From Candidatus Bathyarchaeota archaeon (lineage in GTDB: Archaea > Thermoproteota > Bathyarchaeia > Bathyarchaeales > Bathycorpusculaceae), in NCBI GenBank assembly GCA_963717465.1, contig OY970340.1:1248001-1312000 (forward strand): 64,000 nucleotides of DNA. The letters are read 5' to 3'. The position numbers were made by a program. Below are positions 36,001 through 42,000 of the stretch, piece by piece (within the stretch, counting starts at the first letter, position 1; the number at the start of each line of letters is the position of its first letter).

Positions 36001-39000
36001 AACAAAGCATCAAAAGCATTGAGTAATGCCGAGCCGTTATGGCGCAAAATCGAACACAAACAAGAACTTCAAGAAGTCGTAGTCTTTTCCCTGCTGAAGA
36101 ATGGCGAAATCTGCGGAACTGAAATCTTATCTGAAAACCTGCTAAAAATGGAACTTGGCGAGAAAAACGTTCAATCAATGACAGATAAAGAACAAGTCTT
36201 CACAATCGTGAACAACGCTTTAAGAAAAGCTCGTGAAATGGCGCAAAGCAAAGGTCCGCTTATCTTCGTAAAGATTGATAAAGGATATTATAACTCATCA
36301 AACGAGTAAAAATTATAACTCATCAAACGAGTAAAAACTCATTTTTTAACTCTACATTACTTTCTTGTAAGAGTCATATTGAGTCTTACTTAAAAGCTTA
36401 AAGAAATCGTGTAGCAATAAACACTAGAACAAGAAAATGCAAAAAAGCTTGGTTGCTATTAAATTACTCTTTGGCGTTGCAGCGTCTTAGTCTGCCAGGC
36501 ATAATGCCTGATAGTTGTTGTTTCACCGTAGCCGCAAGCTGCACAGCGTTTCTTTCGTACATGGTAAGCGCGTCTTCCGCATCGTCTGCATTTTATATGC
36601 ACGGTTTTGCCTTGTCGCTTACCCATTGATGGAGTGCCTTTTCCCACGGCGATCACCTGGGCGGAGGCGAAATCAGGACTACGTTATCTCCACGAACGAT
36701 TATCAGTCCAAGTTTCATCTGGTTTTCAATCACGGTTGTATCTTCTGTTTCTTCTAAAACAAGATTTAAGTGCTGGTCGAAACCCTTCAATCTTCCTCTA
36801 AGGCTTTTTCCGCCTTTAAGTCGCACAAGTACTATTTTGCCCAAGTTTTGCTCAAGAATTTCAGTGGTCATTTCGCTCATTCTGGAATCCTCATGTACAT
36901 TTATGTCAATCTATACTTTAACTCTTTCAATTTAAACCTATCTAAGGAGAGATTCAAATTATTGCAGGTATGTTTCCATCCATTGATATCCAAACAACCA
37001 TTTTCTGAGCATAAGTGTATATAGAAATATACGCACCGCATAGTGCACGAACTAATCATGTGCGTTCCTCATTATTTAACAGGTCTGCTTTAGTGATCGG
37101 CATAGTATTTGGCAATGGCTTCAAAGGATTCTTTTGGTTCCCATGGCATATCAGGATAAGTTTTGCCGTGCTTTCCATCATCGTAATATTTCACTAAGCT
37201 TGAGCTTGCCATGTTCTAGGTCAAAGTATGGGTTTTCAGAGTAAGGAGTAATCTGGGATATGAATTGAGATATGAATGCACCCTCTACTCCAGCTTTATC
37301 CAAAACATTGAGCTGATCAACGAGTTGACTGACTTGCCAAGCTTCGTCTCTGACATAATTGCCGCGAAGATGTGGACGCACTAATAAACCTATCAATGGT
37401 AATTGATGGAGAAACTGAGACCTGACATCAATTATGTTCGTGTTCAGACCCGCGGAACCTAATAGGCCTTCTGAGCCGATTCCTCCTTGATATGTTGCGT
37501 AGCCAAACTCAGTTATAACGACTGGTTTGCTAAAGGCAAAAAGCGGCTTCATCATGTCTACATATTGATCTTTGATTCGCTCGATTCGATAATGGTCGAC
37601 TCCTACAAAATCGAATATGTTCCAATCTACCGCTTCAAAAATTAGTGAAACGTACGTAAGCTTCCCCTGAAACTCTTTTCTAACAGCCTTATTTACGGAA
37701 AACAAATAGTCATTTAATGGTTTGTTGTGCTCTCCAGCCATTATACCTGATTTTAAGTTTGGGTTCTTAATGCGTGAAACAAAGTTCCTGCCCTCAATTA
37801 TTCCATTCATAAACAAAGTTAACTCAGAACCGACGCTGAGCACTATGGAATCTGACCAACGCTTATGCAAGGTTTCTGCCGCTATAGCGACTTTGCTCAT
37901 GTACTTAAGTGTCTTCTCTGGGCTTTTGTTCCACATTTGGGGAGAAAGCCAAACTTCCAAACCCTGTCTAAGAGCATCCTCAGCGATAGTTATCAAACGA
38001 TCAATGCTAAGACCACAGATTCTAACTGCATTGCAATGCAAATCATTCTTCATAATCTCCAGCTCTTGATGGACAATCCTTGGATTAAAATCAGGACGCC
38101 AATTATAACCCATTGAACATCCGACATCATAAGAAACTCCCTTTCGCTTCATTTTCTCATCTTTTCTAAACCTTACTCTGTATATCTTTTGTGCCGAATT
38201 TTCTTTAAATTTTCTGATTTCTATTAAATTTTAATTGAATAATTTTCAGATTTTTTCATGTTGCTCTAATTTAACTTTGCAGTGTTAATTATTAAATCGA
38301 AATAATGATTTTATATTTGACCTTTATTTTTATTGGTGGAGGGCTGAGGTGAATAGGGAGTTGGCAACGGGAGTTTTTTTAACTGGTAGTAATGGTTTCA
38401 TCGGTACGCAGATTGCCAGAAACCTGATTCTTGAAACGAATTCCCAAATTACGGCTTTAGTTAGAGGTGAAAATCAGGAAAATGCTGTTCTGCGCCTTAA
38501 AAGGGCTTGGTGGGAATGGCCAGAGTTGAAAGATCAAGTTGGCAAGCGTGTTGTTGTCCTTAATGGGGATTTGTCAGCGCCTAACATGAGTTTGTCCGAT
38601 TCCGATTATGATTATCTCGTTAATGATACTTCTTATGTCATTCATGCGGCTGCCAATACGACTCCCAATTTGCAATTGGAGGAACTTGAGAAAATAAATG
38701 TTGTTGGATCAGCCAACATAATGGAGCTTGCTAAAAAAATTCAGAATGACCATGGATTGAAGCGGCTTTCGCATATTTCTACGGCTTTTGTTGCTGGTCG
38801 GCGAGATGAATCAATCAGCGAAAACGACCTTACTGATAAATATGGTTTCAGCAGCCTTTATGAGAAAACAAAGTATCAAAGCGAGCTACTGATGAATGAT
38901 GCAAGAAACGTATTGCCCATTTCGATTTTTAGACCAAGTCTCGTAGTAGGGGATTCAAAAACCGGCGCCATAAGGACGTTTAACACGGTTTACTACATGA

Positions 39001-42000
39001 TAAAACTGTACATGACTGGGCACCTTAGGCTGGCGCCAGCTTCACCAGCACTTAAAATAAACATTGTTCCAGTGGACTATGTTGCCGACTCAGTTGTCAA
39101 ACTAACGTTTGATGATAAAGCAAGCGGTTTAACCTTTCATCTTACATCACCAGCTGACAAGACGCCAACTGCTTCCGAACTATTCAAGTATGTCCGGGTG
39201 TGGGCAAGAGATAATATGAAATTGAATTTGCCAAATCTCATTTTTGCTCCATCGTTAGGAAAGGCAACGCAAAGCTATCTTTCGCTCACAAGCCATCAAA
39301 ATCCATCCGCTAAGAAAATCAATGACGCCTTTAAGACGCTATCACCCTATTTCAGTCAAAACAAAGATTTCAAGCGTGAAAATATAGATCGACTGATGGG
39401 ACCTTACACCCTTAACTGGATGGATTATCTTGGAAACTTGCTTCAATACGCTGTTCACTATAGCTTCTTCCACCGCTCTGAAAGAACAGTACATGAGCAA
39501 ATTCTATTTCGTCTGCAAAGCGAAGCAAAGCCAATAACTTACCATGAAATATGCGACGGAAAAGTCATCACTTATAAAACAAAGGACGTGCGAGATGAAA
39601 TATTAACAGTAGCCGCCGCCATGAAAAACATGGGCATTAAAAAAGGCGACGCTGTAGCTATAATAACACCTAATACCATTCGATACTTACTGGTTGACGT
39701 TGCCACCGGCTTGTTAGGTGCAGTTCTAAGCCCGTTGTACATCACAACACCGGTTGCAGAACTGAAAAAGATTCTTGCAGAGAATAAAGCAAAAATCTTG
39801 TTCGTAGGATCCGCTAAACTTTTGAAAGAAATTGCCAAAATAAACATCGATATAACAATTGTTTCTCTTCTTAAAGAGCACTTTGACTCAAAAGAATTCG
39901 ATCAAGTATTATCTTGGCAGCAATTCGTGAGCAAATCAAACAATGAGAAAGTATCTGATATGGGACCTATGGGTTTTGAGGACCTCGCAACGATACGGTA
40001 CACTTATGGATCAACAGGTGACTCCAAAGGTGCATGCCTTGAACACGGCGGCCTACGCTATCTTGCAGAGTCTTTAGCCTCAAATCTTCCTTGGAAGATT
40101 CGAAACTCGGAAATTCGTTACCTTTCGTTTCTTCCTTTAAACCATGTCGCCGAAGGCATAAATGCAGCATATGCTCCTTACTATGTTCCAGCCAAGATTG
40201 ACCTTTACTATCTTGAAGATTTCAAATTCTTGCAGCAAGCTCTTAGAATAACAAGACCGAGCATATTCTTTTCTATTCCAAGGTTTTACGAGAAACTCTG
40301 GGAAGCCTTGTTAGCTAATCCAGTAGGGAAACGTTATGTCGAAGCAAAAAACGGGCTTGTGAAGAATTTACTAAGAAGATTGGTGCATAATAGTCTCCTT
40401 AGTAAGTCGGGCTTAGATGAATGTTCCGAATTCATTGTGGGAGCGGCTTGTACAAGTGACATATTGATTAAGAATTTTAAAGACTTAGGGATTGAAATAC
40501 AGAATGCGTATGGGCTGTCGGAAGCGCCTCTTGTTACTATGAACAGGCTTGGTTTAAGCAAAGCAGATACGGTGGGTCCACCGCTTTTAGGTACTAACAT
40601 ACGCATTGATGAAGATGGCGAAGTTCTAATCAAGGGACCACAAGTAATGAAAGGATATCTTGGTTCTAAAAAAGAACAGCCTTTCAAGAACGGTTGGCTG
40701 GCAACTGGGGACATTGGAGAAATAACAGTTGATGGGCATTTAAAAATAAATGGGCGGAAGAAAACATATTCTCGTCACTTCATATGGCAAAAAGATTCCA
40801 GTTGATAAGATTGAAGCTTCACTAAAAACGATTGAATGCGTGAAAGATGCTTTGCTTGTAGGTAACAATCAGCCTTATTGCAGTGCGGTTATTTGGGTTG
40901 ACAAGAATGAGCCCTATGATAAAACGAAAATAGCTCAAGCAATCGATGAAATCAATAAAGGCCTTGAAGGACCAGCGCAAATTAAACGCTTTGAAATAGT
41001 GGAAGAAGAATACTCAAAAACACCCGAAGACAGCTTAAAAATAAAAAGGCAAGACTTGCTTCAGAAAGCAGAGAAGACTATCGAACTTATATATTCTCCT
41101 CAAAACGCAAGCACCCAAATTAACTAATGATTGACCAGTTTATCATGAAAAGCGACTTATGTAACCTTTAAAGAAGGATAGTAATGCCGTAAATACTGGC
41201 TTAACTAGTTTTGTTTTGTCAGGATTCGTCTGATTTCTCGCTGCTCGCCATTTTCCAAGTCTTCACTGCTCCCTCGTAATTATTGTGAATCGCCATGTAA
41301 CTAATTCAGGAGATAATTACTGATAATTCTTTCAGCCCTGATCGGCTTTGCCAAAATGAATGGTCTTTTAACAGTCTCTATGGCTTCACCTTTGCCTCTG
41401 GCGCGCGATGCAACTGATATGCGAGAATATAATTAATCATAAAAAATGAGAGATTGAACGCGAAATTGATTGTTCGGATTGTTACTTGATCGTCATTCCT
41501 TGCTTAAAAGTCACATTCACCAAAGCTTTTTAATCAAATCTAACGTAATCTTCAATCTAACGTACTCTTCATTAGAAATATTAGAGTGAGACTGGGAGAA
41601 GGCATATTATGAAAAATATGAAAATCTTTATGACGGGTGCCAGTGGATTTATTGGCCAACAGGTCGCTAATATTCTGTTGGAAAAGGGTCATGACCTTGT
41701 GTGCTTAACGCACCAGAAGAGCATAGACAATGCCCGCATCAAAACGGTGCAGGGTAACATCTTGGATAAAAACTCCTTGATAGCCATGAAAGGCTGCGAT
41801 GCGGTTATTGCTGCCGCCGCCGTTTACGTGATCGGACCGACAAAACCGGTGCGTCGGACCATGCATGACATCAACGTGACTGGCGCCAAAAACACCTTGG
41901 ATTTAGCCGTAGAATTGGGAATCCCCAAAATAGTCTATGTGTCCTCGATCGTGGTGTTCAATGACACCACGCCCTTCGGCGTCGCGAGTGAAAAAGATTT

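What a model noticed while it worked through the whole genome (the two positions that open the first line are those of the whole stretch)
38349..41127. Carrier-less thioester-reductase/acyl-CoA-synthetase fusion (R-A order)
g01600/01601 (one frameshifted gene) joins an N-terminal NRPS-type thioester reductase domain to a long-chain acyl-CoA synthetase, with no carrier domain detected, the reverse order of carboxylic acid reductases. It predicts one-protein conversion of fatty acids to aldehydes or alcohols in an archaeon.
Evidence so far: The N-terminal 353 aa hit the MxaA R domain at E 2e-28 with the nucleotide-binding and YxxxK motifs aligned; the C-terminal part hits FadD15. There are 467 homologues at E<=1e-80; most of the 120 listed are 900-980 aa with NAD_binding_4 plus AMP-binding and no carrier family, including Bathyarchaeia and Methanobacterium entries. 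Found in 2 of 201 Bathyarchaeia genomes. Paper search 199 listed nothing on it.
(Added by a program. Inside this text positions count along the whole contig: contig position 1,248,001 is position 1 of the stretch shown here. "Call 12" and the like, gene names such as g00115 and contig names such as C1 are that model's own, and its searches are not shown. The text may have been shortened before it was handed on; [...] marks where a part breaks off. The agent that wrote the report below was given it as the finding of a first reader that could run no searches.)

Follow-up and report, generated by a model that had tools for sequence, protein, structure and literature searches.

The report
Carrier-free reductase–CoA ligase fusion enzyme
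A sediment archaeon encodes an unstudied two-part enzyme that probably activates an organic acid with coenzyme A and reduces it to an aldehyde or alcohol without the carrier arm that known acid reductases need; its relatives usually sit in an undescribed four-gene cassette, but this copy belongs to a branch that stands alone.

Summary
The fusion is real: an N-terminal NAD_binding_4 reductase (R) joined directly to an acyl-CoA-synthetase-type ligase (A), no carrier. The split at 40761-40764 is probably an assembly error: 10 of 47 conserved loci in this genome are frameshifted. Catalytic residues of both domains are conserved. No carrier protein or phosphopantetheinyl transferase was found in the genome, so free CoA is the likeliest shuttle; substrate and activity are untested. 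Corrections: R-before-A order is already known from ElbD (with carrier and acyltransferase); R is not shown to be NRPS-type (below the TIGR01746 cut-off, outside the NRPS clade, sister group unresolved); 'long-chain fatty acid' is a guess; the family occurs in 16 of 401 class genomes. This copy belongs to a solitary Bathyarchaeia clade lacking them, with remodelled ATP-binding loops. Verdict: new variant of known chemistry; interest 0.45.

The parts
38335..38343 (+). Purine-rich Shine-Dalgarno-like stretch 5 nt before the GTG start
   Evidence: read from the sequence; function not tested
38349..39458 (+). R domain (residues 1-370): extended SDR of the NAD_binding_4 / thioester-reductase / FAR group, without the Sterile domain
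   Evidence: Pfam; model of homologue P0002 aligns over residues 1-370 with MxaA R (Z 37.3, rmsd 2.8, 347 aligned) and rice FAR DPW (Z 35.9, rmsd 2.9, 364 aligned)
38382..38405 (+). Nucleotide-binding TGxxGxxG motif; Arg39 after strand 2 suggests NADPH (that rule is recalled)
38778..38873 (+). SDR catalytic Ser144/Thr145 and Tyr171-x3-Lys175
   Evidence: Tyr and Lys invariant in 111 of 111 homologues, Ser and Thr in 110 of 111
39459..39518 (+). Short conserved R-A junction; no room for a ~70-residue carrier
   Evidence: mean identity 0.68-0.81 at the junction against 0.48-0.64 in the domains; one helix in the model
39519..40763 (+). A domain core: ANL adenylate-forming ligase of the acyl-CoA synthetase type
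40002..40028 (+). P-loop with the clade-specific Ser-to-Tyr change at its second position
   Evidence: Tyr or Phe in 31 homologues, Ser in the other 80 (this site was used to split the two sets)
40761..40764 (+). Run of four A where the frame shifts; probable assembly indel
   Evidence: genome-wide rate
40765..41127 (+). A domain C-terminal subdomain (AMP-binding_C_3) with A8 hairpin, conserved Cys and A10 lysine (41038-41040)

Best explanation
The gene encodes one polypeptide of about 925 aa with two enzymes. The C-terminal ligase uses ATP to adenylate a carboxylic acid and passes the acyl group to free coenzyme A. The N-terminal SDR then reduces the acyl-CoA with NADPH to the aldehyde and probably on to the alcohol, releasing CoA. 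It would thus work like a carboxylic acid reductase, or like FadD plus FAR, with CoA in place of a tethered carrier. Shown: architecture, absence of a carrier, conserved catalytic residues, family context. Inferred: adenylation (about 0.9), CoA as acceptor (0.7), thioester reduction (0.7). Guessed: a long-chain fatty acid as substrate (0.4; another hydrophobic or aromatic acid is as likely). In most relatives the enzyme is the core of a four-gene cassette. This copy belongs to a derived Bathyarchaeia clade that works without the cassette. The frameshift is most likely a sequencing error (0.8).
For: Both active sites are conserved in 111 homologues: SDR Tyr/Lys, P-loop Gly, A5 Glu, A7 Asp and A8 Arg are invariant, and the A10 Lys is kept in 110. 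No PF00550 or PF01648 in G000, while 11 and 10 of 14 control genomes ring; none in 3 of 5 other family-bearing genomes. The model has pTM 0.88 and no carrier bundle. R matches the MxaA R domain and the plant FAR DPW about equally and the N-terminal part of PRK07201, the profile used for acyl-CoA reductase AcrB in PMC11948995. The A5-A8 region aligns with the CoA ligase MenE without an insertion (done on L080). Stand-alone relatives of R have a separate CoA-ligase gene directly downstream in 46 of 80 metagenome loci, nearly all one clade (45 cluster at 55% identity); others sit beside lipid kinases, CDP-alcohol transferases and UbiA-type genes.
Against: No activity data. R and A score below every curated NCBIfam cut-off shown, so neither substrate nor reaction is fixed by family membership. 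The related FAR-like domain of ElbD gave no detectable fatty alcohol in vitro (PMC9131029). A thioester reductase may refuse acyl-CoA, as TamH does, though that is a different (AAR-type) family (PMC9594044). The cassette also holds an alcohol-oxidising GMC enzyme and a pyruvyl-transferase-like protein, which simple fatty-alcohol synthesis does not explain. G000 is 88% complete by markers, so a missing carrier gene is not excluded. 2 of the 5 other genomes do encode a carrier and a transferase, away from this locus. The 46 split pairs are one clade with a ligase only about 21-25% identical to A, so they count once. No read covers the frameshift.
Confidence: 0.5

Rival explanations
1. Reverse logic: R reduces a ketone or aldehyde (perhaps made by the cassette's GMC enzyme), and A then activates a carboxyl group to form an ester, lactone or amide with the new hydroxyl. 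This resembles the OleD/OleC pair (recalled, no paper found). The cassette would modify a sugar, polyol or envelope lipid rather than reduce an acid.
For: The cassette holds a pyruvyl-transferase-like gene (CsaB model E 3e-27, under cut-off) and a GMC dehydrogenase. R is under the TIGR01746 cut-off. ANL fold hits include amide-bond synthetases.
Against: The best structural matches of R are thioester reductases and a FAR. OleC and OleD models are not among the 25 best NCBIfam rows shown for the fusion. The solitary clade keeps both active sites without any cassette partner.
Confidence: 0.18
2. No CoA is used: the acyl-adenylate is reduced directly, or the acyl group passes through a cysteine of the enzyme (a LuxE/LuxC-like relay, recalled), within a tightly packed R-A unit.
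For: Confident relative placement of the domains in the model (pTM 0.88) and a highly conserved junction. A Cys in the C-terminal subdomain is kept in 108 of 111 homologues; a second Cys beside the adenylate pocket is kept in 31 of 31 members of the solitary clade.
Against: The A8 Arg is invariant and the hairpin Gly is kept in 106 of 111; these form the CoA pocket in the thioester-forming state (PMC8460268, passages, for the role of the motif; residue roles recalled). The first Cys starts a beta-strand in the model and may be structural.
Confidence: 0.12
3. This copy is a decaying orphan: the frameshift is real, removes the subdomain with the adenylation lysine, and the gene lost its purpose with the cassette.
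For: The assembly has a frameshift. No c1 or c3 partner and only a 21-24% c2-like hit in G000; only below-cut-off Pfam hits for those families. The P-loop Ser and the A10 Thr are lost in the clade. Patchy presence: 6 of 24 same-genus genomes.
Against: 14 breaks in 43.6 kb of conserved genes in this genome predict about 0.9 breaks in a gene of this length. The solitary clade is as conserved in A as in R (mean identity 0.64 and 0.60) and keeps all catalytic residues. Both pieces are about 69% identical to intact P0002.
Confidence: 0.15
4. A carrier is supplied in trans: a free ACP, or the V4R/Bet3-fold protein of the cassette acting as acyl shuttle.
For: The partner gene lies directly downstream in 66 of 80 loci; its fold matches Bet3/TRAPPC3, one entry of which is palmitate-bound, and phenol sensors.
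Against: No ACP or transferase found in G000 or in 3 of 5 other genomes. The solitary clade has no such partner nearby. The partner's three invariant Cys and one Asp look like the V4R zinc site (recalled) rather than an acyl acceptor.
Confidence: 0.05

Closest known systems
Carboxylic acid reductase (CAR; PDB 5msc, 5msd, 5mso; NF041592)
   Same: An ANL adenylation domain and a NAD_binding_4 reductase in one chain; predicted net reaction acid to aldehyde.
   Different: Order reversed; no carrier domain; 124 bits against a cut-off of 1300; 16-19% structural identity in A; no transferase found in the host.
Myxococcus ElbD ether-lipid enzyme (PMC9131029, passages read; the primary paper was not read)
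   Same: Reductase first, acyl-CoA synthetase second.
   Different: ElbD-like proteins add a Sterile domain (3 of 4), a carrier and an acyltransferase; only 24-29% identity in either domain; separate R clade.
Fatty acyl-CoA reductases (plant DPW, PDB 7eoz; AcrB, PRK07201) working with a separate FadD
   Same: Same fold as R (Z 35.9); same two-step route through acyl-CoA as drawn in PMC11948995.
   Different: There the two steps are separate proteins. R lacks the Sterile domain and the second SDR of AcrB; 145 bits against a cut-off of 549.
NRPS/PKS terminal thioester reductase (MxaA R, PDB 4u7w; TIGR01746)
   Same: Best sequence and structure hit for R (E 9e-28; Z 37.3) with the same motifs.
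   Different: N-terminal, not preceded by a carrier; under cut-off; outside the NRPS R clade.
TamA-TamH of the tambjamine pathway (PMC9594044, passages)
   Same: Natural fusion enzymes that take a fatty acid to the aldehyde.
   Different: Two proteins, ACP-dependent, and an AAR-type reductase with a catalytic Cys that rejects acyl-CoA.

Membership tests
Carboxylic acid reductase | A-T-R domain order | tested here: not met
   R-A order
Carboxylic acid reductase | Phosphopantetheine carrier domain | tested here: not met
   No PF00550 in window ORFs or 5 family members; junction about 20 residues; carrier-like Ser motif in 1 of 111; no such bundle in the model
Carboxylic acid reductase | NF041592 score over 1300 | tested here: not met
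   124 bits for the 818-aa piece, 175 for intact L080
Carboxylic acid reductase | ATP- and NADPH-dependent reduction of a free acid | not testable with these tools
   needs an assay
NRPS/PKS thioester reductase domain | TGxxGxxG, Ser/Thr and YxxxK motifs and fold | tested here: met
NRPS/PKS thioester reductase domain | TIGR01746 score over 213 | tested here: not met
   170 bits; 175.5 for L080
NRPS/PKS thioester reductase domain | Nested in, or sister to, the NRPS/PKS R clade | tested here: inconclusive
   Not nested: 12 NRPS rows form a 100/98 group without it (38 of 72 rows used). A sister position is not rejected, and that tree scored 21 log units better than the quick tree (p-AU 0.75)
ElbD | Reductase before acyl-CoA synthetase | tested here: met
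ElbD | Sterile, ACP and acyltransferase domains | tested here: not met
   no PF03015, PF00550 or PF01553 in the family
Fatty acyl-CoA reductase (FarA/AcrB) | NAD_binding_4 domain with FAR-like fold | tested here: met
Fatty acyl-CoA reductase (FarA/AcrB) | Sterile domain (FarA) or second SDR and PRK07201 cut-off (AcrB) | tested here: not met
Long-chain acyl-CoA synthetase | AMP-binding plus AMP-binding_C_3 with A3, A5, A7, A8, A10 residues | tested here: met
   the A3 second position and the A10 Thr are changed in this clade
Long-chain acyl-CoA synthetase | Curated model cut-off (PRK06187 476; FadD11 950) | tested here: not met
   162 and 148 bits; 216 and 206 for intact L080
Long-chain acyl-CoA synthetase | Open CoA pocket (no FAAL-type block) | tested here: inconclusive
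   No insertion against MenE after A5 (position of the FAAL insertion recalled); the pocket residues described in PMC8460268 were not mapped
Long-chain acyl-CoA synthetase | Preference for C12-C18 acids | not testable with these tools
   needs an assay

The most novel reading that the evidence does not exclude
The family is a self-sufficient, phosphopantetheine-free acid reductase whose tightly packed domains channel acyl-CoA, or the acyl-adenylate itself, between active sites. It heads an undescribed anaerobic pathway, shared by Methanobacterium, Bathyarchaeia, Thermoplasmata and Chloroflexota, in which the alcohol product is oxidised or remodelled by an Fe-S GMC enzyme and capped from phosphoenolpyruvate by the pyruvyl-transferase-like protein. 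That would give a new fatty-acid-derived lipid or detoxification conjugate in archaea. The solitary clade in this window, with changed P-loop and A10 loop, would be a spin-off with its own substrate.
Probability: 0.12. Interest if true: 0.8.

Novelty: new variant of a known kind. Interest (0 to 1): 0.45.

Why it matters
If the activity holds, it is a one-gene acid-to-aldehyde or acid-to-alcohol catalyst that needs no phosphopantetheinyl transferase, a practical alternative to CARs, and it adds a route by which strict anaerobic archaea handle exogenous acids. The conserved cassette points to an unknown small-molecule or lipid pathway that can be tested in a cultured host (locus L080, Methanobacterium oryzae DSM 11106 by its record title). 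The chemistry of each half is conventional, the R-before-A order has a precedent, and archaeal fatty-alcohol synthesis is already known, so the surprise is moderate.

Tried and rejected
Reads: one DNA run with a small share of words, no RNA holder listed; its two contigs do not reach the frameshift. Complex prediction of cassette R-A (residues 3-797, L023) with the V4R-fold partner: no answer, score 0.00, used neither for nor against binding. A suspected fusion of the pyruvyl-transferase-like gene to R-A in L076 (1303 aa) was rejected: the extension matches nothing among the loci and reads like a spurious GC-rich frame. My own carrier-domain HMM found no hit in 120 family proteins, the loci or the genome, but it missed the carriers of the ElbD-like proteins held out, so I do not rely on it. 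My first adjacency count (9) had a coordinate flaw and was redone (46). The first frameshift tally (14 of 58) held duplicates and was replaced. The quick R tree was not the best tree; the test of R with ElbD did not finish. No solved relative of the pyruvyl-transferase-like protein by profile. The 154-aa fifth gene has no named family. The sigma-70 promoter and terminator scan is near shuffle level and does not suit archaea. No full-length match in plasmids. The GMC homologue search gave only generic names. Paper searches with no paper; with listings but none on this family by title or abstract start. These were narrow phrase searches of an open-access library, so 'undescribed' is not proven. 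NltCD, Maqu_2507, OleC/OleD, LuxE/LuxC and the V4R zinc site are recalled, not read. No supplements were opened.
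Full report
Observation. The window holds an 818-aa ORF (38349-40805) and an overlapping 125-aa ORF (40750-41127). Pfam places NAD_binding_4 at residues 11-248 and AMP-binding at 402-771 of the first, and AMP-binding_C_3 in the second. The frames switch at a run of four A (40761-40764) right after the hinge GRKK. The second ORF continues the alignment to intact homologue P0002 at 69% identity. 113 of the 119 listed homologues are 900-985 aa and 115 read through the hinge. This is one gene of about 925 codons.

The frameshift. No read data cover it. Using relatives' proteins as queries, 10 of 47 distinct conserved loci in this genome are split, with 14 breaks in 43.6 kb (this gene is one of the 10). 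Leaving it out gives 0.32 breaks per kb, so about 0.9 are expected in 2.8 kb and the chance of at least one is about 0.6 (my arithmetic). The anaerobic ribonucleotide reductase-like gene and sufC-like gene in this window also appear split (names from my reading of the translations). An assembly error is the simplest cause, but it is not proven.

No carrier. There is no PP-binding hit in the window ORFs or in five family members, whereas four ElbD-like proteins and one A-T-R protein in the same scan do hit. The AlphaFold2 model of P0002 (111 sequences, pLDDT 88, pTM 0.88) runs from the last R helix through one short helix into the A core. Structural matches cover residues 1-370 and 373-911 with no gap. 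The genome shows no PF00550 and no PF01648, while 11 and 10 of 14 controls ring (G000 is 88% complete by markers). Of five other family-bearing genomes, three show neither; two have both, away from this locus.

The R domain. Its glycine motif, Ser/Thr and Tyr-x3-Lys are conserved across 111 homologues. In a search of 1.84 billion representatives, only 3 of the best 150 hits are large NRPS/PKS proteins. Of 112 hits not assigned to the family by my filter (which let about ten family fragments through), 97 are 350-430 aa stand-alone SDRs. Thirty or so of these score about equally against TIGR01746 and the N-terminal part of PRK07201, the profile used for acyl-CoA reductase AcrB in PMC11948995 (passages). 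Structurally R matches MxaA R (Z 37.3) and the rice FAR DPW (Z 35.9). In a bootstrap tree of 38 of my 72 R sequences, fusion R domains (100/100), NRPS/PKS R domains (100/98) and ElbD-like domains (100/100) are three separate groups with unresolved joins. A tree holding fusion and NRPS R together was not rejected and beat the quick tree (p-AU 0.75). So R belongs to the thioester-reductase/FAR group, but 'NRPS-type' is not established.

What R's free-standing relatives do. In 80 metagenome loci of the stand-alone SDRs, 46 have a CoA-ligase gene directly downstream, in the same order as the fusion. 45 of them form one cluster at 55% identity, and the ligase is only 21-25% identical to A, so this is one independent pairing. 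Others lie beside lipid kinases, CDP-alcohol transferases and UbiA-type genes. This fits a reductase that makes lipid alcohols from acyl-CoA, without proving it.

The A domain. It has the ANL fold; hits include malonyl-, benzoate-, feruloyl-, coumarate- and fatty-acid CoA ligases and CAR A domains, all at 15-23% identity. The best curated models are PRK06187 and FadD11, far under cut-off. The A5 Glu, A7 Asp and A8 Arg are invariant, and the A10 Lys is kept in 110 of 111. The A5-A8 stretch of L080 aligns to MenE without an insertion. The substrate cannot be named from this.

Distribution and context. A scan of GTDB genomes confirmed 311 relatives, of which the best 80 were kept: 65 archaeal, 13 bacterial and 2 unassigned by record title; this sample is biased to close relatives. 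59 of the 80 have three partners in fixed order: an upstream pyruvyl-transferase-like gene (PF04230), then R-A, an ATC_hydrolase-family gene and a GMC oxidoreductase; 7 have two partners, mostly at contig ends; 14 have none. Among 62 loci with room on both sides the counts are 50, 1 and 11. The genes abut or overlap. The small partner has a V4R/Bet3/H-NOX fold (best Z 10.5). The GMC enzyme has a four-Cys motif in 49 of 49 copies examined. A TetR gene lies nearby in 20 of 80 loci. In this genome's class the family is in 16 of 401 genomes, all in one family (15 of 103 besides G000), and in 6 of 24 same-genus genomes.

This copy. It falls in a Bathyarchaeia-only clade (11 rows, support 100, stem 0.51; FastTree) whose nine loci have no cassette partner (L003 lacks upstream and L004 downstream room). 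G000 has no close partner genes elsewhere. Two contigs carry both types (L008/L015, L009/L023). The 31 listed homologues of this type have Tyr or Phe for Ser in the P-loop (the site used to define the set), have lost the A10 Thr, share a new Cys beside the adenylate pocket, and differ at some twenty other diagnostic sites in both domains. They keep every catalytic residue, and A is as conserved as R. That is the pattern of a functional paralogue with a shifted role rather than decay (inference).

Mechanism. Most likely: acid plus ATP gives acyl-AMP, then acyl-CoA in A; R reduces it with NADPH to aldehyde and probably alcohol (0.5 for the whole). Rivals are carbonyl reduction followed by ester or amide formation (0.18), CoA-free direct or cysteine-relay reduction (0.12), a carrier in trans (0.05), and, for this copy alone, a true pseudogene (0.15). 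The cassette's overall product is unexplained: a reductase that makes alcohols beside a dehydrogenase that oxidises them suggests more than fatty-alcohol synthesis.

Comparison and novelty. It works like a CAR but fails CAR membership on order, carrier and score. The R-before-A order is known from ElbD, described as FAR-like, ACS, ACP and acyltransferase (PMC9131029, passages; also the figure legend in PMC13012113); ElbD-like proteins are only 24-29% identical here. Archaeal fatty-alcohol synthesis is known through FcrA (PMC11948995). I found no paper on the carrier-less two-domain family or its cassette in ten searches, which were narrow and limited to open-access text. An earlier unchecked note of this scan (e1-4154409) reached the same reading for a methanogen copy; I saw it after finding the cassette, and it is not independent support.

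Noticed in passing
window 37178-38152 (-): 324-aa ORF with no Pfam or NCBIfam hit but a strong match to PDB 7y4h, named AcvX (E 4e-46); divergent from the fusion gene and not conserved beside its relatives.
   Followed up: partly
window 41609-42619 (+): A second extended SDR (HpnA model 160 bits, under cut-off) lies 480 nt downstream on the same strand; it is not a recurring neighbour of the family.
   Followed up: partly
window 43272-43904, 46922-47374 and upstream, 50079-52211: Several genes appear split by frameshifts (a HEAT-repeat protein, a sufC-like and an nrdD-like gene), in line with 0.32 breaks per kb genome-wide. Other split-gene findings from this genome should be read with that in mind.
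   Followed up: partly
L124-L187 (46 loci), e.g. L169:6001-8684: A clade of stand-alone NAD_binding_4 SDRs followed directly by a CoA ligase gene: a split analogue of the fusion with a different ligase subfamily.
   Followed up: partly
L108-L113, L185: Stand-alone SDR in clusters with a YegS-type lipid kinase, UbiA-type prenyltransferase, PEP-synthase-like phosphotransferase, CDP-alcohol transferases and a radical SAM-methyltransferase fusion: a candidate undescribed lipid pathway.
   Followed up: no
L023:12705-13169 and 17 other loci: A 150-aa membrane protein with a small Cys cluster and no named family ends the cassette in Bathyarchaeia-type loci.
   Followed up: partly
L044 genome (G419:C1:1901142-1908151): A Methanobacterium genome encodes a 2620-aa open frame with two carrier domains next to a phosphopantetheinyl transferase, probably an NRPS.
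   Followed up: no
L020, L037: Cassette loci labelled Acidoferrum and Sulfotelmatobacter nest inside Bathyarchaeia sequences; mis-binning or transfer, not resolved.
   Followed up: no
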